A DNA stretch of 32,000 nt from Candidatus Poseidoniaceae archaeon (GCA_943789275.1 CALSTM010000002.1:1-32000), one strand, 5' to 3'. Counted from the stretch's first letter, positions 1 through 16,633 are shown. The notes: generated by a model not told the origin, from the sequence alone. Translations and numbers: made by a program.

Positions 1-63
1 CTTCGTGAACTTCCAGCGATGAAGGGTAGACCTCCTCTTGAATGGATTTGAAAATCGCTTCAT
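1..63 (-). CDS. hypothetical protein, N-terminal fragment that runs off the window edge
   Basis: The ATG at 63..61 overlaps the TGA (65..63) of the upstream 73-aa ORF by 1 nt (TGATG). It reads MKRFSNPFKRRSTLHRWKFTK... to position 1 with no stop. A GGGGTGG SD-like motif lies 5 nt upstream. Not in the ORF track because it is truncated. Confidence 0.35.
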   Translation of the reverse strand, partial: MKRFSNPFKRRSTLHRWKFTK

Positions 64-284
64 CAAAACCACCCCTGCTCATATCCACATCGATAGCACC
101 AGTAGGAGAAGTGCTTGTATTCATCATTCCATTTCCTTGCTAGTCGAACTCGGTAATTCCTACCATTAGATCTGAACCAACATTTTCCTGTCGGGCAAGG
201 TGGGAAAGCGATGATTCTCCCATCTCGAACCACTGCACCCATCTTCTGATGCCATTCGACATCGTACGGAACATCATCGTTCAT
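63..284 (-). CDS. small Cys-containing protein (73 aa), possible zinc ribbon (CPTGKC ... CYRC)
   Basis: ORF-track entry. Its ATG (284..282) overlaps the TGA of the upstream 55-aa ORF as ATGA. GAGGAGGTGG lies just upstream. Four Cys are arranged as CxxxxC ... CxxC. No family recognised. Confidence 0.5.
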   Translation of the reverse strand: MNDDVPYDVEWHQKMGAVVRDGRIIAFPPCPTGKCWFRSNGRNYRVRLARKWNDEYKHFSYWCYRCGYEQGWF

Positions 285-448
285 TCTTCCACCTCCTCTG
301 CGTGGAGATCACAGCCTGCGGGACTGCCGTAAATGTAGTAATTACATGGGCAGGCATCACAGCATTCTAAACACCAGTAGCATCCACAAGAATACTCAGT
401 CCTGCTGAGATTACCACACGAAGTGCACCGGATTACTTTGCTACTCAT
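281..448 (-). CDS. Cys-rich miniprotein (55 aa, 10 Cys) with an acidic C-terminus
   Basis: Hand-translated; below the ORF-track cutoff. Sequence: MSSKVIRCTSCGNLSRTEYSCGCYWCLECCDACPCNYYIYGSPAGCDLHAEEVEE. GGAGGTG lies 7 nt upstream of the ATG at 448. There are ATGA overlaps at both ends (447..445 with the upstream ORF, 284..281 with the downstream ORF). Confidence 0.5.
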   Translation of the reverse strand: MSSKVIRCTSCGNLSRTEYSCGCYWCLECCDACPCNYYIYGSPAGCDLHAEEVEE

Positions 449-603
449 TCACACACCTCCTTTGAAGGGTGCAATGGATAAGATGCCTCACAGTATGGAC
501 AGAAGAATGCTGCTACATCGAATCCCCAAATGGATTCACGTAGATCATCAACCATCGGTTTGCCACATCGGTAGCAATTGACACGGATTTCGATGGTGTT
601 CAA
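445..603 (-). CDS. zinc-ribbon miniprotein (52 aa, CxxC ... CxxC), putative TTG start
   Basis: Hand-translated: (L/M)NTIEIRVNCYRCGKPMVDDLRESIWGFDVAAFFCPYCEASYPLHPSKEVCE. The TTG at 603..601 is preceded by GGAGGTGA (615..608). An in-frame TAA upstream excludes a longer ORF. The only in-frame ATG (555) would remove the first CxxC. The stop overlaps the next ATG. Confidence 0.4.
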   Translation of the reverse strand: MNTIEIRVNCYRCGKPMVDDLRESIWGFDVAAFFCPYCEASYPLHPSKEVCE

Positions 604-726
604 ACCATCACCTCCAAGAAGGTCTTGAGAACTGACTTGGCGTTACGATTGTTACCTTCTTCCAAGTCCTTCAGAGATTGCTCGATATTCTTGAGCAAAC
701 GAGTGGTAAAGATGTCATCGACCAGT

Positions 727-3700
727 CTATCGTTTATGGTCCCCGCTCCCAGACTTGAACTGGTGACCCGTAGTGCCAGTTACCTGTTCGAACGCGTTGT
801 CAATCGTTTGAATCCACTTATCCTCTGGTATTTGTTTCCAGAGGTGTTTTGGGATTTTTTCTCTCATGAAAGGTGGCAAAGGAAAACTTTGGTCAAAGGA
901 ACGGACCAAATGAGGTGCGAGTTCTTCTGTTATCCACTTAGGAGGGGATTCAATGTCTTTCCAAACACGATCCCTCAATTCCCGTAATTGTCTCGCACGA
1001 ATTCTCAGTTCAAGATCTGTCCAAGCGATGTCATTTCGTCGATGGAGTGCAATGCTTCGACTTGCGGCTTCGGACATCAAAGCTTTTCTGAGGTCTGGAT
1101 TCTTTTTCATTTGGCCCATTTGCACTGCCGTCTCCATTAGGTCTCGAATCCATGACAGTTCAGTTTTGGCGTCACTCTCTTCTTCTAACCCCGCTCGTTG
1201 TTGAATAAGAAGTTGGCAGAGGCGGAAGAATTGGAAATATCGCTCGAAGTCTGGTATTCTGCCACTGTCGTCAAACAACTTGGATGGGGGTTGAGAAAAC
1301 TGTTCACCTAATTTTTCCACATGACAGCAGAATGCAGTGTATGTGTAGTCCTTACTCAAGAAAAGTATGTGTCGAAGAAGAATTTGACCAAAATCGTAAT
1401 GCAAGAGCATCAATTCATGTCTTGACTCTGATTCGATTGAGAGTGCCTCTTTTGAAGCGATTAAAAGGGCGATTTCTCGTTGGGCATGTGATTCAAACAT
1501 CAGTAAATGCTGGGCTTGGTAATTAATTTCTTTCATTCTCCAAATGTTTTCAAGTTCTGGGTCATTTTTGAGAAACGTATTTTTTGCCTCCTCTTTGAGT
1601 CGATTCCATTTATCTGTTTTCCAGAATTCATCCATGCTAAGATATGACCCTTTCAACCATAATTGATAGATGAGGGCCGCTTTGGCTGGATTGGATGTTT
1701 GGAATTTGTCCATGTGTGCGATGATAAATTCACCAAGGAATTTGCAAGTTGATATTGAGAGGCTTGGAATCCTGCATCTCAATTCAAACAAGATTTGATC
1801 TGGTATTTCTTCGATTGAGTCCATCATTTTCTTGGGGTTTTTGAACCATATTTTCAATTCATTATCCAGGACGTTGGTTTTTTGATTGGTTCCTGCCCGA
1901 AGGATTGAGAGTAAGTATTGGCCAGTGAACTTTCGCTCTTCATTCTCAATGGGCTGGTTAATTCTGATTTCCATCTCAGAGTTATCGTACCCGTCGGAAA
2001 GGTAGGGCATTTGACCTGTTGGATCGATGGCTAAGAGGGCGTTCATTGCAAAGCGCATTGCTAAAGCAAGATCTTTGTGTTTCTCCCAACGCTTCACCTC
2101 TTCTGCAACGTAGGTGTTGATTGTGAAGGCAGTGAACAGTTTTGTGAAGATAGGGTGCTTTGGTAGCGCAGGGTTGTTTGGGTCGTCTAAGTCGATCAGA
2201 GCTTGCATATCCTCATCGGGGATTGTGATGTCTCTCAGGAATGCTGGAATTTTTTCCAGGACGTCGTGAAATTCATCTTCGCTGGGGATTTCATCTGAAT
2301 CAAACCAATCTTGCAGGATGTCAAGCGAGCATAGTGTTTCAAAAACACCGCTTTGGGTTTGAACAACACCTTCCTTGGCCAGTTTATCCCAAGCAACCAT
2401 GCATCGGAGTTTGCACGCAATCGGTGTTTCAAGTTCAGAAATCATCTGTATGGCAAGGATTTCTTCATCTGAAATGGTTGATAATCGATTCAACAGCGGG
2501 GCATCTCTGGGACACTCGAGCAGGTCCAGATTGGTGTTTGAGTTGACAAAAGAGTCAACAAATTTTGGCATCCCAAAGAATGTGCTGTTCATGCGCACAC
2601 AAAGGTTCAGAGCTTCTTCCATGCCAAGTTGAACACCAAAATGAGTATCCATGTAACCTGCTAAACTAACCGGAGTCATGGTATGTGGTTTTAGATGAAT
2701 CAATTCATCAGGGTTCAAACCAAATTTCTCGAAAGGAAACATATACAGCCCCATATGTTCTTGCCTCTCTCTGGTTATGAGGAGTAGGGGAACAACTCTC
2801 GAGATTTGCAGTAATGTTTCAAAAATACCAGTCCCAAAGTGATTAATCAGCACCTCCGCATCGTCGATAATCAATGGTAAGAGCGGTGCTTGGTCAATTC
2901 TCTCCAGTTGGTCTTTGATGGTCTCTACTGTCTTTAGGAGGGGGTCATGTCGTGCTGATTGATAGCAAATTTCAATCAATTCGGTGTCGAAACCAAGAGT
3001 TTGAAGAGCGAGCTTACTGATTGAGGTTTTTCCAGTGCAAGCGGGTGCTGACATGATGTAGAGGCCAGCAGAACCAGGCGAGAGATGTTCACAAATCATG
3101 GTATGATTATGAATATCGATGAATGGTGGGTGGAATTCACCTGGCATAACACCGGGGATTACAATGTTTTGAGATGGTATGATGCATCCGTCCCTTCTCG
3201 ATTCAAAAAGTGCATACGCCAACCAACATGCATCACGATTTGGGTGAAGTGATTTCAACCCCTTTCTTGCAAAAAGAACCGCTGAACGCACATCAATGGA
3301 ATATGCTTTTTCGGTGGAGATTTGAGGTATGGCCTGAGTCACATGCGTCCAGAAACCGATGCTGAAATCTCTGGCTGCCACGTCCCAAATCTCCCAACGT
3401 GTAGCAACCACGGCGTCAACGCCTCGTATGCAGAATTGTTCTGCTATAGGTCCACTTATCCCGGAAATGTCAGTTTCAACCGAAGTATCTCCACTTTTGC
3501 AAGCATTGAGGATGACAAGTCGTGGAGGTCCAGCACGGCAACATGAAGCAACAAATTCTGTTGCTGTTAGTCCCCCTGAGTGACCAATATAATGCCCGTC
3601 TTCGACGCTCATGTGGCCACAGAAGTGAATGATGTCCCAATGATTGGATGCAAGGATGGATCTGAGATTTTTTGGATCTTCATCTTCACGTGCACAAACA

Positions 3701-4149
3701 ACTGTTGTGTCAATGCCTCTTGATTCCATCAGTTGTTGAATTGTGTATGCCTCTTCTTGCGCTTTTGACAGTTCAATTGAAGATTCCAGATTGATGATCA
3801 AAGCCTTCTGACTGCCCCAGGGCAATCTGGGAATCCTTGTTTCAACCTTGAGGGGAATCACTTTGTACAATCCTTGGTAGGTGTCTTCATGCGGTTGAGA
3901 TTCTTCGATATCCTGGTTTGGAATTAGTGGATACATTTCGGGATTTTCTTGATTTCTCACGGCCCAATTCACCCAAAACTTTGCATTTCCACGGAAATCA
4001 AGCTTTGATGCCACCATCTCACCAAAGGCGTCGTTGAACTGTTCCGCATTGAACTTGTTGGCCCAAATGGATTCTGGGGATCTCCTGTTTGGAGTCGACC
4101 AAATTGAGTTTATGAGCATACTCAACGGAATCGGCCAGATCTCATCCAT
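727..4149 (-). CDS. CHAT (caspase-like) protease domain fused to a STAND/NB-ARC-like P-loop NTPase and a long helical C-terminal region (1140 aa)
   Basis: Long uninterrupted ORF. The CHAT dyad motifs are WDIIHFCGHM (aa 171-180) and RLVILNACKSG (Cys217). Walker A is SAPACTGKTS (aa 366-375) and Walker B is LPLIIDDAE (aa 424-432). These are followed by PLLLITRER, which resembles the NB-ARC hhhTTR motif. The remaining ~650 aa are helix-rich with no motif I recognise. Confidence 0.8.
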   Translation of the reverse strand: MDEIWPIPLSMLINSIWSTPNRRSPESIWANKFNAEQFNDAFGEMVASKLDFRGNAKFWVNWAVRNQENPEMYPLIPNQDIEESQPHEDTYQGLYKVIPLKVETRIPRLPWGSQKALIINLESSIELSKAQEEAYTIQQLMESRGIDTTVVCAREDEDPKNLRSILASNHWDIIHFCGHMSVEDGHYIGHSGGLTATEFVASCCRAGPPRLVILNACKSGDTSVETDISGISGPIAEQFCIRGVDAVVATRWEIWDVAARDFSIGFWTHVTQAIPQISTEKAYSIDVRSAVLFARKGLKSLHPNRDACWLAYALFESRRDGCIIPSQNIVIPGVMPGEFHPPFIDIHNHTMICEHLSPGSAGLYIMSAPACTGKTSISKLALQTLGFDTELIEICYQSARHDPLLKTVETIKDQLERIDQAPLLPLIIDDAEVLINHFGTGIFETLLQISRVVPLLLITRERQEHMGLYMFPFEKFGLNPDELIHLKPHTMTPVSLAGYMDTHFGVQLGMEEALNLCVRMNSTFFGMPKFVDSFVNSNTNLDLLECPRDAPLLNRLSTISDEEILAIQMISELETPIACKLRCMVAWDKLAKEGVVQTQSGVFETLCSLDILQDWFDSDEIPSEDEFHDVLEKIPAFLRDITIPDEDMQALIDLDDPNNPALPKHPIFTKLFTAFTINTYVAEEVKRWEKHKDLALAMRFAMNALLAIDPTGQMPYLSDGYDNSEMEIRINQPIENEERKFTGQYLLSILRAGTNQKTNVLDNELKIWFKNPKKMMDSIEEIPDQILFELRCRIPSLSISTCKFLGEFIIAHMDKFQTSNPAKAALIYQLWLKGSYLSMDEFWKTDKWNRLKEEAKNTFLKNDPELENIWRMKEINYQAQHLLMFESHAQREIALLIASKEALSIESESRHELMLLHYDFGQILLRHILFLSKDYTYTAFCCHVEKLGEQFSQPPSKLFDDSGRIPDFERYFQFFRLCQLLIQQRAGLEEESDAKTELSWIRDLMETAVQMGQMKKNPDLRKALMSEAASRSIALHRRNDIAWTDLELRIRARQLRELRDRVWKDIESPPKWITEELAPHLVRSFDQSFPLPPFMREKIPKHLWKQIPEDKWIQTIDNAFEQVTGTTGHQFKSGSGDHKR
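2700..3090 (-). other. P-loop NTPase core of the 1140-aa protein (approx. aa 355-480)
   Basis: The Walker A Lys373 codon is at ~3033..3031 and the Walker B Asp429/430 codons at ~2865..2860. Domain borders are approximate. Confidence 0.6.
3190..3810 (-). other. CHAT/caspase-like domain segment of the 1140-aa protein (approx. aa 115-320)
   Basis: The His codons of HFCGH lie at ~3627..3613 and Cys217 at 3501..3499. The His-to-Cys spacing of ~40 aa is typical of caspase-fold proteases. Domain borders are approximate. Confidence 0.6.
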
Positions 4150-4276
4150 CCAATCAAGCGACGGATGACACTCTCTCGAACCGAACGTCGTACGAGTTTT
4201 TTCAGAGCAATTTCGATGTTCGTTGCCCTTTTGTGAAAGGATTGGGATACTTCAAACGCGATATTGAACATCATCC

Positions 4277-4573
4277 TCATGCATCGTTCGATCCAAATGT
4301 TTCTTCATCCATTTTGAGGTAGACCTCCCCTTCATCTGAAAGCAGAATCCGTTCATCCTCGCTGATGTATCCCCAAGCACGATAGTTGAGGTATGAAGAA
4401 TCTCGAACGCCAACTCGCAATGCTGGTTCAGGTGGGCGGAACGTACCGATGTCGTCCTCGTTCAACGGAACCAGTGGTCGTGTGTCTGCATCGTAGTCAT
4501 CGGGTTGCTCGTTGAGGAGCTTCAGTTTGTCGATCAGGTCATCGGGCAGTTCGTCGTTTGTGTTTCTGCTCAT
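4277..4573 (-). CDS. highly acidic small protein (98 aa), unknown function
   Basis: ORF-track entry. Its ATG (4573) overlaps the TGA of the upstream HNH ORF as ATGA, which indicates translational coupling. It is rich in D/E (DELPDDLIDKL, EQPDDYDAD, LNEDDIG, SEDERILLSDEGE). No family recognised. Confidence 0.55.
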   Translation of the reverse strand: MSRNTNDELPDDLIDKLKLLNEQPDDYDADTRPLVPLNEDDIGTFRPPEPALRVGVRDSSYLNYRAWGYISEDERILLSDEGEVYLKMDEETFGSNDA

Positions 4574-5334
4574 GGTAGCAATCCTCCAAAGAATTCAACC
4601 AGTGCTTTGGCGAAATCCACTTGGTCGCTTTTCGCCTGATTGTGGGTTTCGCAATACAGCGTGAGGTTCCAAATGCGTTGCGGCCCTCCCAAAGAGAAGG
4701 GAATGAAACGGTGGTCGTACTGCAACCTCGTCGTTGCCGTGCATCGTTGCCTGAAGTGGTCGATGTGGGTGCAGCGGCCCCGATCTCGCAAGGCGACGGC
4801 AATCTTCACATCCTGTGGAATGTGCCTCGAAATCTCTTGATGGAGGATGTTGCGTTGGACGAATCGCATCGCCGTCAAGTAAGCCTCTTCACCTGCTTTG
4901 GCGATGATGCTTACTTCGTCACCCTCGTCCCTGAGCACGCTTTGCTCGACGGAATGCAACACCTGGTCAAACCGTACATTCCCTAAATTCAGAGACATTG
5001 GAGGAGGTGGTTGAGTTGGCGGAACCACTGGTGCAGGAAGTGGTCGTGGTTGCTGAATCAACAACAAGCAATCCGGCATTCCTTCCCACGCCTTCAATCG
5101 AAATCCGAGCCCTCTCACGAGGTAGATCTGTGAGGATGGTCGGGTCGCCTTTGGATTCAGTGGAACCATGGTGGCCATGGATTGACTGACCATGGCGGAC
5201 CATTCCGCAACGTGCATGCTACGGCGAAATTTCCCTGATTTGACCGTCACTTTGCTGGCGTTCGTGATGATTTGGAGCGATGCGAACTTGGCCAAAACAT
5301 CACCACCTCTCTGCATTGGGCAATGTTCGGTCAA
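4570..5334 (-). CDS. HNH endonuclease domain protein (254 aa): unknown N-terminal domain, Pro-rich linker, C-terminal HNH
   Basis: The C-terminal sequence RDRGRCTHIDHFRQRCTATTRLQYDHRFIPFSLGGPQRIWNLTLYCETHNQAKSD fits the HNH pattern (C..C ... DH.iP.s.GG ... NL..lC...N..K), at roughly nt 4614..4785. The linker is QQPRPLPAPVVPPTQPPPP. The start could instead be Met7 (5316). Confidence 0.7.
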   Translation of the reverse strand: MTEHCPMQRGGDVLAKFASLQIITNASKVTVKSGKFRRSMHVAEWSAMVSQSMATMVPLNPKATRPSSQIYLVRGLGFRLKAWEGMPDCLLLIQQPRPLPAPVVPPTQPPPPMSLNLGNVRFDQVLHSVEQSVLRDEGDEVSIIAKAGEEAYLTAMRFVQRNILHQEISRHIPQDVKIAVALRDRGRCTHIDHFRQRCTATTRLQYDHRFIPFSLGGPQRIWNLTLYCETHNQAKSDQVDFAKALVEFFGGLLP

Positions 5335-5596
5335 CCTTCGACCGAACTTCGGTCAACGCTCGGTCAATCTTCGGTTGAACTTCGGTCGAAAAGGCGGCGA
5401 GGAGGCTGGTTGCCTCGTCGATGAGTCCTGCTTGGAGCAAGGCGTGAGCCGACCGAATGGTTGCTTCGAGTTGAGCCACTTGGGTTTGGGGAGCGGAGAC
5501 TGGTACGTCCGCCACCAACTTTGAGTCCGTACCCTCTGATTGGATTTGAAGACTGAAACAAGACGGTTTTATTCGGGCAGTACCCATTGCGGCCAT
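5300..5596 (-). CDS. hypothetical protein (98 aa), doubtful
   Basis: ORF-track entry in the same orientation as its neighbours. It overlaps the 139-aa ORF by 28 nt and the HNH ORF by 35 nt. Its C-terminus (TEVQPKIDRALTEVRSKVDRTL) is simply the translation of the 11-bp repeat array, so the region may be non-coding. Confidence 0.3.
   Translation of the reverse strand: MAAMGTARIKPSCFSLQIQSEGTDSKLVADVPVSAPQTQVAQLEATIRSAHALLQAGLIDEATSLLAAFSTEVQPKIDRALTEVRSKVDRTLPNAERW
5325..5390. repeat. six tandem copies of an 11-bp unit (consensus CTTCGGTCAAC; copy 2 reads CTTCGACCGAA, its complement strand carries the core as TTCGGTCGAAG)
   Basis: Read directly from the sequence: GTTCGGTCAAC / CTTCGACCGAA / CTTCGGTCAAC / GCTCGGTCAAT / CTTCGGTTGAA / CTTCGGTCGAA. 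The copies are contiguous with an exact 11-bp register. The array straddles the annotated start (5334) of the HNH ORF. Confidence 0.85.
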
Positions 5597-5988
5597 TCTT
5601 CATGGTCGGAAGAATTGCTGACAACAACCAAGACCGGCCGCTGAACGGTCGAAAGTACATCGTTTAAGTTTCGATGAGTTGATGGAGTAATGACGCCGTC
5701 CCTCATGTCAACTGCCAGCCATGCTTCGGGATATTGGCCCTTCCAAGCCTCCAGTTCAGCTTCAATACCTTCAGGAGGTATTCCTTGGCGTACGCTCGCA
5801 ATGAATCCCCATTGCGGAGGGCAGCGACGTTCCGCATCTGTCCAAAGAAACATTCGTGGCTGTGAAGGGAGACGACCCAGTTGGGCTATGGCTTCTTCGA
5901 GGGTCACGCAAACGGGCCGATTCGGCATTGGCATCGGCAGTGAATGACGCCAAGTACGGTCCAAATCGAGTGGTTCTCGGCGGCGCAT
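5569..5988 (-). CDS. hypothetical protein (139 aa)
   Basis: ORF-track entry with an ATG start at 5988. It is the first gene of the co-directional minus-strand block and diverges from the DUF106 gene. No recognisable motif. Confidence 0.45.
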   Translation of the reverse strand: MRRREPLDLDRTWRHSLPMPMPNRPVCVTLEEAIAQLGRLPSQPRMFLWTDAERRCPPQWGFIASVRQGIPPEGIEAELEAWKGQYPEAWLAVDMRDGVITPSTHRNLNDVLSTVQRPVLVVVSNSSDHEEWPQWVLPE

Positions 5989-6035
5989 GTACGGCCTATG
6001 CTTGTCTCTCGTTTCAATCCCTCGGAGTATCGAGA

Positions 6036-7037
6036 ATGATGGAGGTCCGTAAGAAATCGAAGCGAACCTTCATGCCCCATGTGCGCTGCCATCGAATCAT
6101 GTCCAGTGGTAGCGCACCTCCACCACCTCAGCCGCCAGGCGGCTCAATGCTGATGATGCTGGGTGTAATGGTCATGATGACATTGCTCATCATGAACCCC
6201 GATATACGAACAACACTCGGTGATGTTGCCGACCCGATTCTTGACCCTATTTTACCACAGGAAGCTTATTTCGTACTCACAGTTCTCATTCTTGGTAGTT
6301 TCTCGATGACCATGAACACTGTTCTTCGAAATTTCTTCACTGACCCAATGGCTCAAGCACACATCGGTCACCGACAAGGCCAAGTCCGACGAATGATGAA
6401 CGATGCACGAGTCTCAAGAGACCCAATCTTGCAAGAGAAAGCAACCACTCTGCAACAGCAAATGATGCCTGAGCAACTTAAAGTGCAGATGGGTGCAATG
6501 AAACCAATGATGTTCACGATGGTTTTCATCATCGGTATTTTTGCTTGGTTAACCACCGCCGTGGAAAGTTTCCGAGTTGATTATGTCTCTTTACCATGGG
6601 CATCCGAATGGAATCTTTTGGAAGACAAGTTCTTCTTTTTCCCTGCTTGGATCTGTGCCTACATCTGCATGAGTGCACCTCTTGGAAGAGTCATTGACCG
6701 ACACATCAAATTATTCCGCTACAGAAAACACCCGTTGGTTACTGCTGGTGAGACACTCAAAGAACCACTACTCCACTTGGTCGCATCGACTGGAACGCCA
6801 AAAGGCGGGGATGCACAACGAAGGCAACAACGAAACCAAAGAAACACAAATTCGAACCGCCGGAAATCCAAGTCCAACAAAAAAGATTCATCCAAAGTGG
6901 AAGAATCCAACGAAGGAAAGTCCGATTCGGTTTGGGATTCAAATTCCAACGAATGTCCAAAATGTGGACTCACTATGGTCACCAGGATGGGACCTCGCAC
7001 AAGAAAGTGTGATGTTTGCCGTCATGAGTGGGTGTAA
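6036..7037 (+). CDS. DUF106 / Oxa1-superfamily (EMC3/YidC-like) membrane protein with a basic C-terminal tail and terminal zinc ribbon
   Basis: It has the DUF106-type layout: a TM helix, a long Q/M-rich helical hairpin (QEKATTLQQQMMPEQLKVQMGAMKPMMFTMVFIIGIFAWL), then further TM helices. It holds the conserved position immediately upstream of archaeal cmk. The track start at 5856 is a GTG that overlaps the opposite-strand ORF, so I use the first ATG (6036). ATG 6099 is also possible. Confidence 0.7.
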   Translation: MMEVRKKSKRTFMPHVRCHRIMSSGSAPPPPQPPGGSMLMMLGVMVMMTLLIMNPDIRTTLGDVADPILDPILPQEAYFVLTVLILGSFSMTMNTVLRNFFTDPMAQAHIGHRQGQVRRMMNDARVSRDPILQEKATTLQQQMMPEQLKVQMGAMKPMMFTMVFIIGIFAWLTTAVESFRVDYVSLPWASEWNLLEDKFFFFPAWICAYICMSAPLGRVIDRHIKLFRYRKHPLVTAGETLKEPLLHLVASTGTPKGGDAQRRQQRNQRNTNSNRRKSKSNKKDSSKVEESNEGKSDSVWDSNSNECPKCGLTMVTRMGPRTRKCDVCRHEWV

Positions 7038-8772: not shown

Positions 8773-11166
8773 TCACTGCAATTTTTTGATCTTTGGAGGA
8801 GTCAAAAATACAAAGGCACCGACAATTGCTAACAGTGCGACAACCGTGAGGCCCCAGAACATTCCTTCTGAGACTCCGTCCGAACCTGAGGCAGAATCTT
8901 CACTGGCGGGTGAGGCTTCAATGGCGATAGCAATCTGGGCCTCATTGTTGTCTTCAATTCCCTCAGAAATTTCGGAACCTCGGTCGATGACGGCGCGTAA
9001 TTGCTTCTGCCCACTGTCTTCGGGAACTTGCCAGTCAAACGTTACGTAGGCAACTGAGCCGGGCTGAAGAACGGGAATCGTATCGTAATCAATCAACTGT
9101 GAGTCAACCTCACAACGAACTGAAATCATGGATGCTTCTGCCTGTCCAATGTTGCGGACAAATACTCGGATGGACAGAATATCTCCGGCACGGATTTCTT
9201 CACTTCCAACATCAATTTCTTCGACAACCAGGTCAGGTAAGGAGAGTACTTCCAAATCCATTATTCGCTCATGGCATGAGTTTTGGTCGCACAGAGACAC
9301 GAGGACCGAAGTAAAGCCAGGAGTCGGCGGGACAACAGTGATGGTTTTGTTGAAGACATCAATCGATGCCCATGACCGGTTGGTCGAGGCTGTAAGTCCC
9401 GTTGAATCAACATCTGAGTAATCAAAAGGAAGAACAGTAGAAACGGCCAACTCGACTGGAATTAAAGACTGGAATTCCTGCAAAACTGGCGTATCATCAA
9501 CAGTGGCAACATTGGTGATGAATGTTTCACTCCACGTGTTTCCTGAGGAATCTACGACGGTTGTAAGAATTGTAGCCTGTCCGCTTGCTTCAGGTTGAAG
9601 AGAAATTCGAATATCACCTTGAGTTAAATCAACCGTGACCAATTCCGGATTTGAGTTGGTGAAACTGACCACGAGGTCTTCACTAACGGTTCGGTCATCC
9701 GTGCATCGATACAAGAACGGAAGGATACGCCCTCCTCCATCTTCAGTGAGGGATTGGTCACCAACTGGGATGCATTCAGGGTCTTCATCCCATTCGATGT
9801 CGTAGCCTCCCGTAACGCTCATGGAAGTGATTTCCAAAGCAGTCGTACTTTCATTGCCAAGCGAATCCCAGGTAAACCATGACTTCAGTTCGACTTTCAA
9901 GGAAGTATCACCAGCGTCCATAAACTGCCCGACAGGGAAGCTATGGGAAAGCGACGGATTGAGGGCAACCGCTTCGTTGGTTACCAGCTCATCGTTGACG
10001 AACAGAAGCCAGCGTGAATAGACCGGGTCGAGCCCATCGACATCTCCAAAAATCCGTCCTTGAAGTGAAAGGGTTGGGTCGTTCACATCGACGGTAATAT
10101 CGGAAATACACGCATCGGTCGTGGTGAAGCGAAGTTGTGTGTAAGCCTGGTCTGGAAGCAACATATGCTCATCCATTGCAGCAAAATCTGAGAAGCTCAT
10201 TCCATCGCTTGAGAAGGCGTATTCCAAGAGTACGTCATCTTGAGATTCGTTGTCCAATGAATAGTGAACACGCCCAATCCGTTGCTGAGGTGGCGTCGCT
10301 ATGATCTCGCTGGTCCATGCGCCACTGGTTCCACTGACGCTTGACTGGAGGCCACAATCGGAGAGAGCCATGTTGTTGGAGTTTCCCTTCTCCAAGTCAA
10401 GAGCCATTACGGGCATGGAATGGCCGGAGAATTCAGCCTGTGCTGAGCCGTATTCGCCTCCATACCATGGAGTCCTCATTGTGACTCGCATTCCAACTGC
10501 ATCCACCTCCAATCGTGTATCGTCGGTTGAACCAACCGAGACATAATCCAAAGTGAGAATCGAGGACTGGAGCGATTCCCATGTCCATTCGGTCAATTCA
10601 GAAACGTTTGATGACCAAGGATTGGACAGATAAGCAAGGGAACTTTGCGTGTTGGAAAAAGTCACTAACGATTCATATTGTCCGCCGTAATTGATCGAAA
10701 ATCGGACCGAATCTTGGTAAAGTGGACCTGGAACTGAAAAGGCAACAACAACATCCACCGCTAGAATCTGGTACTGCGTTGAACCGAAAGCATTGAACGA
10801 TGTCAATTCAATCACCGGCCCAGTTGACCAGGAGATGGACCCATCTGGCATGCCGAGGGAGTTGTTGGATTCTGTAGGCGTCGATTGGGCCCAGAAGGTC
10901 ATGCTGTCAAGGTTTTGAGGTCGGTGATGAACCATCGTCATTCGTTGGTCAGCGACCATGGCCTCGGTATAGGTCGCCGGGTCTTCTGAAAAAGATGTGA
11001 ATGCACCAAGGCTCCACTCTGACGGTTGGGAAAAAGAACCATCCGGAAACAAATCCACGGTGTTTGTTTGATGGACTGAACGCCCAGCTACCGAACCAAA
11101 TGGTGCCAACAGAAGTATTGAAAGAAGAAAAACGACCGTTGTGAACCTTGCCGTGTTCGCTCGCAT
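8773..11166 (-). CDS. large secreted surface protein with a CARDB-like domain and a C-terminal TM anchor
   Basis: Signal/anchor peptide MRANTARFTTVVFLLSILLLAPFGSVAG from ATG 11166; the track's longer start is 11241. The CARDB-like segment is LPDLVVEEIDVGSEEIRAGDILSIRVFVRNIGQ...VTFDWQVPEDSGQKQLRAVID...NNEAQIAI (~8926..9245). The C-terminus is an S/D/E-rich linker, then FWGLTVVALLAIVGAFVFL, then PPKIKKLQ. Confidence 0.8.
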   Translation of the reverse strand: MRANTARFTTVVFLLSILLLAPFGSVAGRSVHQTNTVDLFPDGSFSQPSEWSLGAFTSFSEDPATYTEAMVADQRMTMVHHRPQNLDSMTFWAQSTPTESNNSLGMPDGSISWSTGPVIELTSFNAFGSTQYQILAVDVVVAFSVPGPLYQDSVRFSINYGGQYESLVTFSNTQSSLAYLSNPWSSNVSELTEWTWESLQSSILTLDYVSVGSTDDTRLEVDAVGMRVTMRTPWYGGEYGSAQAEFSGHSMPVMALDLEKGNSNNMALSDCGLQSSVSGTSGAWTSEIIATPPQQRIGRVHYSLDNESQDDVLLEYAFSSDGMSFSDFAAMDEHMLLPDQAYTQLRFTTTDACISDITVDVNDPTLSLQGRIFGDVDGLDPVYSRWLLFVNDELVTNEAVALNPSLSHSFPVGQFMDAGDTSLKVELKSWFTWDSLGNESTTALEITSMSVTGGYDIEWDEDPECIPVGDQSLTEDGGGRILPFLYRCTDDRTVSEDLVVSFTNSNPELVTVDLTQGDIRISLQPEASGQATILTTVVDSSGNTWSETFITNVATVDDTPVLQEFQSLIPVELAVSTVLPFDYSDVDSTGLTASTNRSWASIDVFNKTITVVPPTPGFTSVLVSLCDQNSCHERIMDLEVLSLPDLVVEEIDVGSEEIRAGDILSIRVFVRNIGQAEASMISVRCEVDSQLIDYDTIPVLQPGSVAYVTFDWQVPEDSGQKQLRAVIDRGSEISEGIEDNNEAQIAIAIEASPASEDSASGSDGVSEGMFWGLTVVALLAIVGAFVFLTPPKIKKLQ

Positions 11167-11263: not shown

Positions 11264-11293
11264 CCACGCGCATAACCGCGAGTTACCTCTCAT

Positions 11294-11366
11294 GGCTGTG
11301 ATGGTGTAGGGGTTAGCACGGCAGATTGTGGTTCTGCCAGCCCGAGTTCGATTCTCGGTCACGGCC
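11294..11366 (+). tRNA. tRNA-His (anticodon GTG) with an encoded G-1
   Basis: Folded by hand. Acceptor stem GCTGTGA/TCACGGC. G-1 (11294) pairs with discriminator C73 (11366), the tRNA-His hallmark. D stem GTGT/GCAC. Anticodon stem GCAGA/TCTGC with loop TTGTGGT (anticodon at 11328..11330). The variable loop is 4 nt. T arm CCGAG-TTCGATT-CTCGG. No CCA is encoded. A T4 run follows. Confidence 0.85.
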
Positions 11367-15265: not shown

Positions 15266-16633
15266 TCAGAAATAATCTGCATCGTCGTCGGCCTCTTCAT
15301 CTTCGAAATCATCATCGTAGCCCATCATTTCGTCTTGACTTACAGCTCGGTACAGGGGCGCAGCATCCGACTTTGAATCATCAGCAGGTGGTGACGATTT
15401 CACAGCGCCAGGGATTGCTGCGGGGTCTGGCTTCGAGACCGGTTGCGCATCGGTTGAACGAATCGGTTCCAAGCCAACTCGGACACCTTGAGCCTCAGCC
15501 ACTTCTCGGTCAAGAGCCGGCACGGGTGCTGATGGAGCGAGTTGAGCGTTCTTTTGGGCCTCTGTTCCCTCCAACGACACGTCAAAGACCATTTCTTTGA
15601 GTGAAGCGATGATTTTGTCGTTGGTTTCTGTGGTCAACAGTTCCGCAGCCATTGTACGCAGTACATCTTCACCAAACAGGCGAGGAAGTAAATCGATACA
15701 AGCAGAACGAACCTTGATGTCCTTTGACTTCGTTCCGCGAACGACCAGTTCACGGGCACGACCGTGGTCAGTATCCATGACTTGGACTGCCTTGATAGCG
15801 CTCAAACGAACTTCCGAATCGGAGTCGACAAGAGCGCGCTCAGCGAACAGAGTTGCCATTCGAGATTCTTTACGAGCCAAAGCAGGAAGATTTTTTGCAG
15901 CAATACGTCGAACTTCGACTTCTGCATCGTTCAGCGACCATGAGATGAGATCCCAAACTGCGGAATCACCCTTGTTGACGATACGCTTGAGAAGAGCCGT
16001 TGCTTTCTTACGAAGGGCAACTTCTTCTTCAAGAAGTAACGAATCGACATGGTCGACAACCACTTCCGGCCATGTGTCGCACAAACCAGAGAGACCTGCC
16101 CAAGCAGCATCACTACGGTGGCTGACCGTTGAGCGAAGTTCATTGGCGAGAATCGAATGGACACCGGATGGAAAAATCGGGGATGTTGTCGTTAGGCATC
16201 GACTGGCTGCTTTGCGCACATGGACATCTTCATCATCGAGTAAAACCGAAAGCCAGTCAAACAATTCATCGGATTTGAGAACGGCCACTTCCGGCAACAC
16301 GTCGAGGGCAGCAACCCGCTCCTCAGCAAGTTCAGATTCAAGGTACTTCAGAAGAAGCGAATGTGCTTGGTGTATTCTCGACCCATGGAAACGTCCGAGC
16401 GCCCGAAGTGCATCGACCCTGTGAAGAGTCACTGAGCGACTGTCCCAACGAATGACGGCAGATTCAGATTCTTTGTTGAGAAGAGAAAAAACATCATGAT
16501 CGGAGAGGGAAACCCACGGTCCGGTTTTTTTCTCGATTTTTCGAGAAGATTTTCGAGGCTTAGCGACGTGAATTGGAAGGCCTGTTCGCGGATCTCGGGC
16601 GATGTATTCACGTGACATATCTGACTCCTCCAA
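15266..16633 (-). CDS. HEAT-repeat (PBS-lyase-type) protein with an acidic C-terminal tail
   Basis: Repeated D..V/E.VR.xA...L units: DEDVHVRKAASRCL, DAEVEVRRIAAKNL, DSDSEVRLSAIKAV, SKDIKVRSACIDLL. The C-terminus is DDDFEDEEADDDADYF. Confidence 0.7.
   Translation of the reverse strand: MEESDMSREYIARDPRTGLPIHVAKPRKSSRKIEKKTGPWVSLSDHDVFSLLNKESESAVIRWDSRSVTLHRVDALRALGRFHGSRIHQAHSLLLKYLESELAEERVAALDVLPEVAVLKSDELFDWLSVLLDDEDVHVRKAASRCLTTTSPIFPSGVHSILANELRSTVSHRSDAAWAGLSGLCDTWPEVVVDHVDSLLLEEEVALRKKATALLKRIVNKGDSAVWDLISWSLNDAEVEVRRIAAKNLPALARKESRMATLFAERALVDSDSEVRLSAIKAVQVMDTDHGRARELVVRGTKSKDIKVRSACIDLLPRLFGEDVLRTMAAELLTTETNDKIIASLKEMVFDVSLEGTEAQKNAQLAPSAPVPALDREVAEAQGVRVGLEPIRSTDAQPVSKPDPAAIPGAVKSSPPADDSKSDAAPLYRAVSQDEMMGYDDDFEDEEADDDADYF

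What the first reader, a model, noticed from the sequence alone, without database searches (positions are those of the whole stretch)
1..5988. Co-directional block of nine or more ORFs with no housekeeping identity next to the DUF106-cmk-cbf5 array: candidate defence island or virus-derived element
All ORFs from 5988 down to position 1 lie on the minus strand, and many are joined by 1-4 nt overlaps (ATGA at 4573/4570, 448/445 and 284/281; TGATG at 65/61). The content is: unknown 139 aa, doubtful 98 aa, HNH nuclease protein, acidic 98-aa protein, CHAT-NTPase, then four Cys-rich or small proteins. None resembles a core archaeal gene. In many archaea the DUF106-cmk-cbf5 trio is preceded by secY and adk at the distal end of the ribosomal-protein super-operon. 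Here that position is taken by this divergent block, only ~47 nt from the DUF106 ATG. A nuclease plus a STAND-like protease plus tiny zinc-finger proteins is typical of defence islands and of archaeal virus or provirus genomes. The left border lies outside the window.
Basis: partly seen in the sequence, partly recalled or inferred. Interest (0 to 1): 0.7.

Follow-up and report, generated by a model that had tools for sequence, protein, structure and literature searches.

The report
Mosaic mobile element arm at tRNA-Arg
The block is not a host operon but one arm of a composite mobile DNA element inserted into a tRNA-Arg gene of a marine group II archaeon, carrying a nuclease gene and a truncated protease-ATPase gene of the anti-virus type, which gives a first precise look at integrating elements in this abundant uncultured group.

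Summary
The co-directional minus-strand ORFs and their 4-nt overlaps are real. They are not one unit.

- **Host gene:** the 139-aa gene (5569-5988) is conserved. It sits divergently next to DUF106 in nearly all of ~80 Poseidoniaceae loci.
- **Element boundary:** the foreign DNA ends at 5500-5540, a 41-bp copy of the tRNA-Arg(TCT) 3' end plus downstream sequence. One relative (L012) has this site unoccupied next to the 139-aa gene.
- **Two fused modules:** they come from two integrative elements, both found complete elsewhere.
  - Module A (763-5499) holds an integrase-tail remnant, an HNH nuclease, a frameshifted 150-aa gene and a 3'-truncated CHAT-NTPase.
  - Module B (1-762) starts at a 26-bp tRNA-Tyr att core. 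It holds a second integrase-tail remnant and three zinc-ribbon genes that lead to a CRESS-like Rep beyond the contig end.
- **Intact A island (L101):** it carries Argonaute, a radical-SAM enzyme (PADLOC PDC-M51A), p206 and full-length CHAT. This supports "defence island on a mobile element".

The secY-adk displacement premise is wrong for this lineage. No window protein matches PADLOC, and the CHAT copy here may be inactive.

The parts
1..124 (-). 5' part of the next small core gene (p64 in gene calls of sibling loci), cut by the contig end. An alternative ATG at 63-61 in another frame cannot be excluded.
   Evidence: Gene calls at L001-L006 10161-10355. Window 1-758 is 100% identical to L002, L004, L005 and L006. 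Sequence read. Window position 1 is the end of the 819,666-bp contig.
63..284 (-). z73, a 73-aa Cys-rich protein of the module-B replication core.
   Evidence: The exact protein is indexed in 335 collection blocks. In L001-L006 it is always followed by p64 and a 423-427-aa Rep. It is 100% identical in L001-L007.
281..448 (-). z55, a 55-aa Cys-rich (zinc-finger-like) core protein.
   Evidence: 100% identical in all seven loci. 4-nt ATGA overlaps on both sides.
445..603 (-). z52, a 52-aa protein with a CxxC...CxxC zinc-ribbon pattern; first core gene after the att(Tyr) site.
   Evidence: Weak zinc-ribbon Pfam hits. 100% identical in all loci.
600..761 (-). Remnant ORF for the C-terminal tail of the module-B integrase (Int443 type): SSSLGAGTINDRLVDD...EVMV*. 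In a circular element it would be joined to the integrase through the att core.
   Evidence: In L102 the integrase ORF runs through the 26-bp core (...PPPHSSSSLGAGT...). The same frame continues in the window. The integrase clusters show many C-terminal length variants, 430-474 aa.
737..762 (-). att(Tyr) core, CAGTTCAAGTCTGGGAGCGGGGACCA: the 3' end of an intron-containing tRNA-Tyr(GTA). It is the joint between modules A and B.
   Evidence: The intact tRNA-Tyr ends with this sequence in L003 (9447-9548) and L102 (122-225). It forms perfect 26-bp direct repeats at L102 200-225 and 11290-11315. Sequences shared with sibling variants begin at window 758, 763 or 767.
727..4149 (-). CHAT', a 1140-aa protein: caspase-like CHAT protease, then a P-loop NTPase of ORC/STAND type, then a helical C-terminal region. 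It is 3'-truncated. The last 11 codons and the stop come from the att(Tyr) core read in another frame.
   Evidence: Pfam CHAT E=2.7e-15. Invariant H175/H179, C217, G373-K374 and D429-D430. AF2 model pLDDT 78, pTM 0.70. Foldseek hits to ORC/Cdc6, SAVED-CHAT 8tl0, Avs4 8dgf and AVAST5 9nc9. It lacks the ~75-aa tail present in all 27 homologues. 99.8% identical to full-length L101 CHAT over residues 1-1131.
4122..4573 (-). p150 gene, broken here by a 1-bp deletion near 4280 into a 98-aa ORF (4277-4573) and a 52-aa ORF (4122-4280). Acidic N-terminus; function unknown.
   Evidence: Alignment with the intact 150/151-aa genes of L001 and L005. L101 p150 is 100% identical to that of L001. A distant HNH + 143-aa pair lies at the edge of another island, L096/L097. 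Whether the frameshift is real or an assembly error is unresolved.
4570..5295 (-). HNH241: a folded N-terminal domain (1-81), a Pro-rich linker and a C-terminal HNH nuclease domain. A backbone gene of module A.
   Evidence: Invariant D194-H195, N210, C215 and N219. Distant family members carry PF01844. The best Foldseek hits are all HNH domains but weak, E 0.07-0.5. pN/pS 0.04 against L001, from 24 synonymous and 3 non-synonymous changes.
5300..5497 (-). Tail of the module-A integrase (Int401 type), 65 codons (VSAPQTQ...NAERW*), separated from the integrase by integration.
   Evidence: It shares the frame GTDS[K/R]LVADVP with the Int401 C-terminus across the att core. 92-95% identical in L095, L099, L100 and L101.
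5500..5540 (+). attL(Arg): the last 15 nt of tRNA-Arg(TCT) plus 26 nt downstream. This is the element/host boundary. Only 41 of the >=103 bp repeated in L101 are recognisable here.
   Evidence: 95% match to L012 1824-1864, which overlaps the intact tRNA-Arg at 1763-1838. Repeats at L001 4709-4747 and 16364-16398 with tRNA-Arg at 16384-16459. L101 103-bp repeats. Unique in the window, 0 expected by chance.
5569..5988 (-). p139, a conserved host gene of unknown function, divergent partner of DUF106. Not part of the element.
   Evidence: tblastn finds it at 58-94% identity directly upstream of DUF106 in 78 of 80 related loci. No Pfam or PADLOC match.

Best explanation
Window 1-5540 is one arm of a mosaic integrative element. 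The element sits in the 3' end of a tRNA-Arg(TCT) gene, next to the conserved p139-DUF106 pair of a Poseidoniaceae (marine group II) archaeon. The arm joins parts of two element types.

**Module A (763-5499).** This is the att-proximal end of a tRNA-Arg-specific island. Its tyrosine-integrase ORF crosses the att site, so integration leaves the integrase tail at 5300-5497. It is followed by the backbone genes HNH241 and p150, and then by the first gene of a CHAT-NTPase / p206 / radical-SAM cassette.

**Module B (1-762).** This is the att-proximal end of an ~11-kb tRNA-Tyr-specific element. It replicates with a CRESS-like HUH+SF3 Rep, which lies just beyond the contig end.

**The joint.** It lies at B's 26-bp att core (737-762). 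The fusion cut off the last ~75 codons of CHAT and removed p206, the radical-SAM gene and, judging by L101, an Argonaute gene.

**Shown:** the boundaries, the att fragments, the identities with complete copies, the truncation, and absence from this locus in relatives.

**Inferred:**
- Integrase-mediated or illegitimate recombination at B's attP made the hybrid.
- The element excises and replicates by rolling circle.
- The full CHAT cassette is an NLR-like anti-virus system, in which a helical sensor drives NTP-dependent assembly and then CHAT protease activity.
- The copy here is probably impaired.
For: **Host and locus**
- The host is Poseidoniaceae.
- p139 is conserved across relatives, while all other block genes are absent from the 80 related loci.
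- L012 has an empty attB next to p139.

**Complete sibling copies**
- L001 holds the same arm, 98% identical over window 1-5528, inside an 11.7-kb element. It is flanked by att repeats, with tRNA-Arg and a 401-aa integrase at the far end.
- L101 is a complete A island: tRNA-Arg, 103-bp repeats, integrase, pAgo, radical-SAM, p206, full CHAT, p150, HNH and tail.
- L102 is a complete B element between perfect 26-bp tRNA-Tyr repeats.

**The joint and the truncation**
- The att(Tyr) core sits exactly at the junction where sequences shared with sibling variants begin.
- The CHAT tail is missing.
- Partner genes follow CHAT on seven other contigs.

**Module B replication**
- Rep matches Viral_Rep and RNA_helicase above the Pfam cut-offs, and CRESS virus Reps at E~1e-16.

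**Defence cargo elsewhere**
- MTase, PbeA and PbeC on L006.
- pAgo and PDC-M51A on L101.

**Composition**
- The arm deviates in tetranucleotide use and in GC3.
Against: - The window holds no integrase, no Rep and only one att(Arg) copy. The contig ends inside module B, so the far arm is inferred from L001 and L095, which differ from each other.
- The window's attL keeps only 41 of >=103 bp, so excision may no longer work.
- Only one of 80 relatives (L012) has tRNA-Arg next to p139.
- There is no evidence for a free circular form. My attP-type pattern cannot separate attP from attL, because the repeat is long.
- No window protein matches PADLOC.
- CHAT' is truncated, p150 is frameshifted, and the L095 copy of CHAT has three 1-bp indels. 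These may reflect decay or long-read assembly errors.
- Defence activity has not been tested for any of these genes.
Confidence: 0.85

Rival explanations
1. The block is the accessory arm of a true provirus. On this view the B-type element is a temperate, membrane-enveloped (pleolipovirus-like) virus of marine group II archaea, and the window holds its early or accessory genes.
For: - Complete B copies carry, after Rep, a run of genes for proteins with signal peptides, C-terminal anchors or several membrane spans. These are followed by a 248-aa P-loop NTPase and an integrase, an order reminiscent of pleolipoviruses.
- L095 joins the same left arm to this module.
Against: - There are no PHROG or Pfam hits for the putative structural genes.
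- The NTPase has no tblastn match in 50,697 phage and archaeal-virus records.
- No relative was found in IMG/VR, by Rep or by a core 46-mer.
- L001, the closest complete copy of the window's arm, lacks the whole module.
- No capsid or virion evidence exists.
Confidence: 0.3
2. The block is a decayed, immobile remnant. It was once delivered by mobile elements but is now a fixed variable-region scar in this strain, and its genes are drifting.
For: - attL is truncated to 41 bp.
- p150 is frameshifted.
- CHAT is truncated and has an extra 48-bp deletion relative to L001 and L095.
Against: - The B part is 100% identical to copies in many samples, and CHAT' shows 0 differences in 3378 nt against L001. 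That points to very recent spread, not old decay.
- HNH241 is under strong purifying selection.
- The single-base frameshift could be an assembly error.
Confidence: 0.2
3. The block is a chromosomal defence island built in place, not on a mobile element.
For: - It carries a nuclease and a CHAT-NTPase.
- Sibling loci carry pAgo, Pbe and RM genes.
Against: - The DNA is bounded by tRNA-derived att repeats and travels with integrases to different genomic contexts, including Peptidase_S8, ftsZ and p139 flanks.
Confidence: 0.05
4. The block is an assembly chimera at a contig end.
For: - The window starts at the end of an 819-kb contig, inside a sequence that is repeated across many contigs.
Against: - The A-B joint is reproduced in independent assemblies from other samples, L001 and L095.
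- The host-att joint has the structure expected from L012.
Confidence: 0.03

Closest known systems
tRNA-targeting integrative elements and genomic islands of archaea with tyrosine integrases whose att site lies in the integrase gene (SSV-type; SNJ2-type integrases of temperate pleolipoviruses, PMC5861418, listed)
   Same: - Integration is into the 3' end of a tRNA gene, with direct repeats that rebuild the tRNA.
- The integrase ORF crosses the att site, so its reading frame changes on integration.
- The element is present or absent among strains.
   Different: - Only the last ~50-65 codons, downstream of the catalytic region, are split off, not the bulk of the gene.
- Two different integrase/att systems (tRNA-Arg and tRNA-Tyr) are combined in one hybrid.
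- The host is Poseidoniales, for which only a few low-quality, unclassified proviruses (PMC11706807) and the unrelated Charybdis elements were found in the literature I searched.
pCRESS integrated plasmids of bacteria and CRESS-DNA virus Reps (Kazlauskas et al. 2019, PMC6668415)
   Same: - Rep has an HUH nuclease (HLQGY, YCTK) plus an SF3 helicase (GTGKS, LLLDD).
- It matches Viral_Rep and RNA_helicase, and CRESS virus Reps at 25-28% identity.
- It is carried by a site-specifically integrated element.
   Different: - The host is archaeal. The pCRESS groups in that paper are bacterial.
- The element also carries a membrane-protein module.
- Rep lies outside the window.
Avs/AVAST and other STAND (NLR-like) anti-phage proteins with N-terminal effectors; CHAT proteases of CRISPR- and CBASS-linked systems (SAVED-CHAT 8tl0)
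   Same: - The domain order is effector (CHAT) - P-loop NTPase - helical C-terminal region.
- Catalytic His/Cys and Walker A/B residues are invariant.
- Foldseek hits include Avs4, AVAST5, EfAvs5, Dark, CED-4 and SAVED-CHAT.
   Different: - There is no PADLOC match.
- Outside the CHAT domain there is no sequence relative among 1.84 billion representatives.
- The best fold hits for the NTPase are ORC/Cdc6.
- The protein normally sits in an operon with a ~206-aa protein and a B12-type radical-SAM enzyme.
- The window copy lacks the conserved C-terminal tail.
PADLOC candidate defence family PDC-M51 (model PDC-M51A)
   Same: The radical-SAM partner of the CHAT gene in L101 matches PDC-M51A at E=8e-149.
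   Different: - That gene is absent from the window.
- CHAT and p206 match no PADLOC model.
- I found no paper describing PDC-M51.
Charybdis elements of Poseidoniales (bioRxiv 10.1101/2025.08.03.668216)
   Same: - They are mobile elements that integrate next to tRNA genes of marine group II archaea.
- They combine an accessory module with a putative structural module.
   Different: - Charybdis elements are ~4.6 kb and have no recognisable replication gene.
- The elements here are ~11 kb, and B encodes a clear Rep.
- No sequence comparison was possible.

Membership tests
tRNA-integrating element with tyrosine integrase (genomic island / provirus) | Direct repeats (att) that include the 3' end of a tRNA gene and flank the element | tested here: met
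   - The window has one copy of each att type: Arg at 5500-5540 and Tyr at 737-762.
- Both copies are seen in complete siblings: L001, L101 with 103 bp at 98%, and L102 with perfect 26 bp.
tRNA-integrating element with tyrosine integrase (genomic island / provirus) | A tyrosine recombinase gene next to one att site | tested here: inconclusive
   - The gene is not in the window, because the contig ends first.
- It is present in siblings. Int401 matches PHROG integrase at E=9e-13 and Pfam Phage_integrase at E=6e-6, just below the cut-off.
- The window keeps only the two split-off tail ORFs.
tRNA-integrating element with tyrosine integrase (genomic island / provirus) | Presence/absence polymorphism with an unoccupied target site | tested here: met
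   - The block genes are absent from 80 related DUF106 loci.
- L012 has tRNA-Arg plus att directly next to p139.
tRNA-integrating element with tyrosine integrase (genomic island / provirus) | Excision to a circular form (attP junction) | tested here: inconclusive
   The pattern search found four contigs. However, the att repeat is >=103 bp, so the pattern also matches attL.
STAND / Avs-like NLR defence proteins | Central STAND-type P-loop NTPase | tested here: inconclusive
   - Walker A and B are invariant.
- nSTAND_NTPase5 matches weakly in 4 of 28 members, best E 7e-4.
- Foldseek finds Avs4, AVAST5, Dark and CED-4, but ORC/Cdc6 rank equal or better.
STAND / Avs-like NLR defence proteins | N-terminal effector domain | tested here: met
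   - The CHAT domain is found in 28 of 28 members.
- His and Cys are invariant.
- SAVED-CHAT is a fold hit.
STAND / Avs-like NLR defence proteins | Match to a described Avs/AVAST/bNACHT family model | tested here: not met
   PADLOC gives no hit for the window protein or for the full-length L101 protein.
STAND / Avs-like NLR defence proteins | Protection against virus infection | not testable with these tools
CRESS-like Rep replicons (HUH + SF3) | HUH nuclease and SF3 helicase domains in one Rep | tested here: met
   - This was met in sibling loci only.
- Viral_Rep scores 28 bits (cut-off 26) and RNA_helicase 23 bits (cut-off 21.5).
- The motifs are visible in the sequence.
- CRESS virus Reps match at E~1e-16.
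- The gene lies beyond window position 1.
Pleolipoviridae | Homologues of the conserved spike, membrane and NTPase proteins | tested here: not met
   - No PHROG hits.
- No tblastn match of the NTPase in the phage collection.
- Only the gene order and predicted membrane topology resemble pleolipoviruses.
Ribosomal super-operon end (secY-adk-DUF106-cmk-cbf5) | secY and adk directly upstream of DUF106 in this lineage | tested here: not met
   Upstream of DUF106 lies p139 and then a 1041-2826-aa surface-protein gene, followed by ATP_bind_1, OTCase and UbiA.
HNH endonucleases | The beta-beta-alpha-metal motif with catalytic His and Asn | tested here: inconclusive
   - Pfam scores are below the cut-off, E~0.02.
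- D-H, N and C..HN are invariant.
- Distant relatives carry PF01844.
- The top fold hits are all HNH domains, but E is 0.07-0.5.

The most novel reading that the evidence does not exclude
B-type elements may be a new family of temperate, membrane-enveloped viruses (or vesicle-borne plasmids) of marine group II archaea that replicate with a CRESS-type Rep. A-type tRNA-Arg islands may be integrase-only defence islands carrying pAgo and CHAT/p206/radical-SAM. The hybrid in this window would then capture an A island borrowing B's replication module through recombination at B's attP. That would be a natural route by which defence genes move onto a self-replicating, possibly particle-forming vehicle in the ocean's most abundant surface archaea.
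Probability: 0.25. Interest if true: 0.75.

Novelty: new member of a known kind. Interest (0 to 1): 0.5.

Why it matters
Marine group II archaea are among the most abundant microbes of the surface ocean. They are uncultured, and almost nothing is known about their temperate or integrating elements. The one survey I found excluded its 11 proviruses as too poor to classify (PMC11706807).

This locus yields:
- Two precisely delimited element types, with their att sites (tRNA-Arg TCT and intron-containing tRNA-Tyr GTA).
- An unusual integrase design in which the ORF crosses the att site.
- An archaeal integrated element with a CRESS-like Rep.
- A lineage-restricted CHAT-NTPase / p206 / radical-SAM cassette that travels with Argonaute.

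These give concrete sequences for read-recruitment studies of lysogeny and defence turnover in the ocean, and candidates for biochemical tests. For the window itself the result is more modest: it holds a truncated arm of such an element.

Tried and rejected
- **Extending the contig leftwards.** Not possible, because window position 1 is the contig end. I used sibling contigs instead.
- **Rep in IMG/VR.** No relative found. A 46-nt core pattern in IMG/VR also gave no match.
- **attP search in JGI metagenomes.** Four hits. I rejected them as proof of circular forms once L101 showed the att repeat is >=103 bp.
- **PADLOC on all window proteins.** Nothing meaningful.
- **PDB sequence search with the CHAT family profile.** Only a chance-level hit to ADP-dependent phosphofructokinase.
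- **Rfam scan of 1-6100.** Only two chance-level hits, and the tRNA fragments are too short to score.
- **PHROGs on element B genes.** Only the integrase matched.
- **NTPase248 against the phage collection.** No match, so the pleolipovirus link rests on gene order only.
- **HNH241 model.** Only moderate quality (pLDDT 62). It gave weak HNH hits and nothing for the N-terminal domain.
- **Idea that 4277-5334 and CHAT form one fixed three-gene system.** Rejected. HNH and p150 also sit next to an RCC1-repeat gene (L005) and next to PLD/helicase cargo (L096). CHAT normally pairs with p206 and radical-SAM downstream.
- **Literature on PDC-M51.** None found.

Full report
**Observation**

The window is the first 32 kb of an 819,666-bp metagenomic contig, and position 1 is the contig end. 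The ATGA/TGATG overlaps at 4570-4573, 445-448, 281-284 and 61-65 are also present. CHAT is a solid Pfam match in the 1140-aa protein (E=2.7e-15). HNH is only a weak match in the 254/241-aa protein. On the plus strand follow DUF106/EMC3-like, cmk and cbf5.

**Host and synteny**

A scan of species-representative genomes with the DUF106 protein returned 80 loci. Nearly all are labelled Poseidoniales or Poseidoniaceae.

- The 139-aa protein (5569-5988) is found at 58-94% identity, divergently and directly upstream of DUF106, in 78 of these 80 loci.
- HNH241, the acidic protein, CHAT, the three small Cys-rich proteins and Rep are found in none.
- So p139 is a conserved host gene and the rest is variable at this locus.
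- Beyond p139, relatives usually carry a 1041-2826-aa surface-protein gene (DUF11). After that come ATP_bind_1, an ornithine/aspartate carbamoyltransferase, UbiA and a permease, not secY-adk.

**First boundary: tRNA-Arg**

Window 1-5528 is 98% identical to part of another contig, L001.

- In L001 the homologous DNA lies between two copies of a ~35-bp repeat, at 4709-4747 and 16364-16398.
- The second copy overlaps an intact tRNA-Arg(TCT) and the 3' end of a 401-aa tyrosine integrase.
- The window copy of the repeat is at 5500-5540. It is unique in the window, with no matches expected by chance.
- It matches, at 95% over 41 bp, the 3' end of tRNA-Arg plus downstream sequence in the relative L012. 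There the tRNA lies 186 bp from the p139 stop and no element is present.
- L012's other flank (Metallophos, tRNA-Ala) matches L001's right flank at 86%.
- L012 is thus an unoccupied site, and the window carries the distal junction.

The integrase ORF runs through the att core. In a circular element, 5497-5300 would therefore encode the last 65 residues of the integrase.

**Second boundary: tRNA-Tyr**

The segment shared at 99-100% with many other contigs starts at window 758, 763 or 767, depending on the contig.

- That point is the 3' end of an intron-containing tRNA-Tyr(GTA). The tRNA is intact in L003 directly before the first core gene.
- In L102 an 11.1-kb element lies between perfect 26-bp repeats of this sequence, at 200-225 and 11290-11315.
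- The L102 element carries, in order: the three zinc-ribbon genes, p64, Rep, a 191-aa gene on the other strand, eight or so genes for membrane or secreted proteins, a 248-aa P-loop NTPase and a 469-aa integrase.
- That integrase ORF also crosses the att core.
- In the window the core is 737-762. The tail of this second integrase is the unannotated ORF at 761-600, which overlaps the z52 start.
- Integrase clusters with many C-terminal lengths (430-474 aa) fit this design.

Rep has the HUH and SF3 motifs. It passes the Pfam cut-offs for Viral_Rep and RNA_helicase, and matches CRESS-DNA virus Reps at E~1e-16.

**What lies between the two att fragments**

A JGI contig, L101, holds the complete donor island.

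- It has tRNA-Arg(TCT) at 46-121 and 103-bp repeats at 107-209 and 10931-11033 (98%).
- Its genes, all co-directional, are: integrase; an 814-aa long Argonaute (PADLOC PprPIWI 7e-77; PDB CpAgo 8e-27); a B12-type radical-SAM enzyme (PADLOC PDC-M51A 8e-149); p206; a 1210-aa CHAT protein; p150; HNH; and the tail ORF.
- The window's CHAT is 99.8% identical to it over residues 1-1131, but ends in QFKSGSGDHKR*. That ending is the tRNA-Tyr att core read in another frame.
- All 27 homologues keep a conserved ~75-residue tail that the window protein lacks.
- On seven other contigs CHAT is followed by a 202-210-aa protein and the radical-SAM gene. In the window both are gone.
- L001 and L095 have the same joint, 48 bp further into CHAT.
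- L095 continues into a B element with the membrane-protein module, whereas L001 lacks that module. The window's missing arm therefore cannot be specified.

The acidic 98-aa ORF is the front of the 150-aa gene, interrupted by a 1-bp deletion.

HNH241 shows 24 synonymous against 3 non-synonymous changes relative to L001 (pN/pS 0.04). CHAT' shows no change in 3378 nt. This pattern indicates mosaic, recent assembly of the hybrid.

**The CHAT protein**

- The family is small: 27 clusters, and 6 representatives among 1.84 billion proteins. Outside the CHAT domain it has no detectable sequence relatives.
- The caspase-type His and Cys and the Walker A and B residues are invariant.
- The AlphaFold model (pLDDT 78, pTM 0.70) resembles SAVED-CHAT in the protease part. 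In the NTPase part it resembles ORC/Cdc6, Avs4, AVAST5, Dark and CED-4.
- It therefore looks like an NLR-like protein with a protease effector. It matches no PADLOC model, so I do not file it under a named Avs family.
- In L089 the CHAT/p206/radical-SAM trio lies between an intact tRNA-Tyr and a second ~85-bp copy of the tRNA's 3' portion. It is thus itself island-like.

**Is it a defence island?**

- In sibling elements, the DNA joined to the left of B's att(Tyr) core holds different content. It is a type II methyltransferase with PbeA and PbeC (L006), an RCC1-repeat protein (L005), large unknown proteins (L002, L004), or simply the tRNA itself (L003).
- The intact A island carries Argonaute and a PADLOC candidate defence gene.
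- This supports a defence-cargo reading for the element family.
- For the window itself, the evidence is only a selected HNH nuclease and a truncated CHAT-NTPase that may no longer work.

**Composition**

- Region 1-5540 is further from the rest of the window in tetranucleotide use than any of 42 (overlapping) host 5.5-kb windows, z about 3.9.
- GC3 is 0.59-0.61 for the integrase tail and HNH, 0.44 for CHAT, and 0.45-0.49 for host genes.

**Literature**

- A 2025 survey of Poseidoniales viruses found only 11 short, low-quality proviruses and set them aside (PMC11706807).
- Charybdis elements integrate in Poseidoniales but are ~4.6 kb and lack a Rep.
- Integrated plasmids with CRESS-like Reps were described for bacteria (PMC6668415).
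- I found no description of the elements reported here. The search covers open-access papers only.

**Verdict**

The block is one arm of a hybrid of two integrative elements at a tRNA-Arg site, not a unit of nine genes, and the secY-adk premise is wrong. It is a new member of a known kind (a tRNA-integrating element with defence-type cargo). Its interest comes mainly from the host group and from the complete sibling elements it led to.

Noticed in passing
window 5569-5988; L008-L087: A 139-aa protein with no Pfam match is conserved (58-94% identity) as the divergent upstream neighbour of the DUF106/EMC3-like gene across Poseidoniaceae. The fixed pairing suggests a shared promoter region or a linked function.
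   Followed up: partly
L101 1266-3710: An 814-aa long prokaryotic Argonaute (PADLOC PprPIWI 7e-77; PDB CpAgo 8e-27) sits on a ~10.8-kb tRNA-Arg island of a marine group II archaeon, next to the integrase and the radical-SAM/p206/CHAT cassette.
   Followed up: partly
L088, L089, L090, L092-L094, L101: There is a conserved three-gene cassette: CHAT-NTPase (~1150-1210 aa), an unknown ~202-210-aa protein, and a B12-type radical-SAM enzyme matching PADLOC PDC-M51A. Only the radical-SAM gene is in PADLOC. In L089 the trio lies between an intact tRNA-Tyr and a second ~85-bp copy of the tRNA's 3' portion.
   Followed up: partly
L006 363-6140: A sibling element carries a type II methyltransferase (E=8.5e-147), PbeA (8e-104), a 78-aa gene and PbeC (2e-14) in the DNA to the left of B's att(Tyr) core. 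This is a Pbe-like module on a marine archaeal mobile element.
   Followed up: partly
L011 892-9372; L028 6354-9479: Downstream of p139, most relatives carry a giant ORF (2826 aa in L011; 1041 aa with DUF11 in L028). Many MAG contigs end 1-3.5 kb upstream of DUF106, which suggests a hypervariable or repetitive surface-protein gene.
   Followed up: partly
L003 9447-9548; L102 122-225; L089 4249-4348; L001 1263-1449: The tRNA-Tyr(GTA) genes carry 26-28-nt introns, and a tRNA-Trp(CCA) carries a 111-nt intron. Default ARAGORN settings missed them, and they were found only with intron search.
   Followed up: yes
window 6036-7037: The DUF106/EMC3-like protein has a long Asn/Lys/Ser-rich extension and a C-terminal CxxC...CxxC zinc ribbon (weak Zn_ribbon hits), unusual for this family.
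   Followed up: no
L002-L006, L102-L106 (about 3-9.5 kb downstream of z73): Element B carries a conserved run of genes for proteins with an N-terminal signal or anchor and C-terminal membrane spans (163, 86-90, 278, 92, 187 and 198-219 aa), then a 248-aa P-loop NTPase. None matches PHROGs or Pfam. The order recalls pleolipoviruses.
   Followed up: partly
L096/L097 10001-19531: A distant HNH (35% identity) plus a 143-aa partner lies at the edge of another variable region. That region carries a PLD-family protein, a 1190-aa AAA_11/AAA_12 helicase, a kinase-like protein and a radical-SAM enzyme, and it sits next to a TFIIB gene.
   Followed up: no
L091 1439-5710: A divergent CHAT-NTPase homologue (31% identity) sits back to back with a 1423-aa protein that has a weak NACHT match.
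   Followed up: no
window 763 vs L001 9470-9517: The window lacks 48 bp (16 CHAT codons) that L001 and L095 keep just before the att(Tyr) core. L095's CHAT has three 1-bp insertions. These are either real decay or long-read assembly errors.
   Followed up: partly
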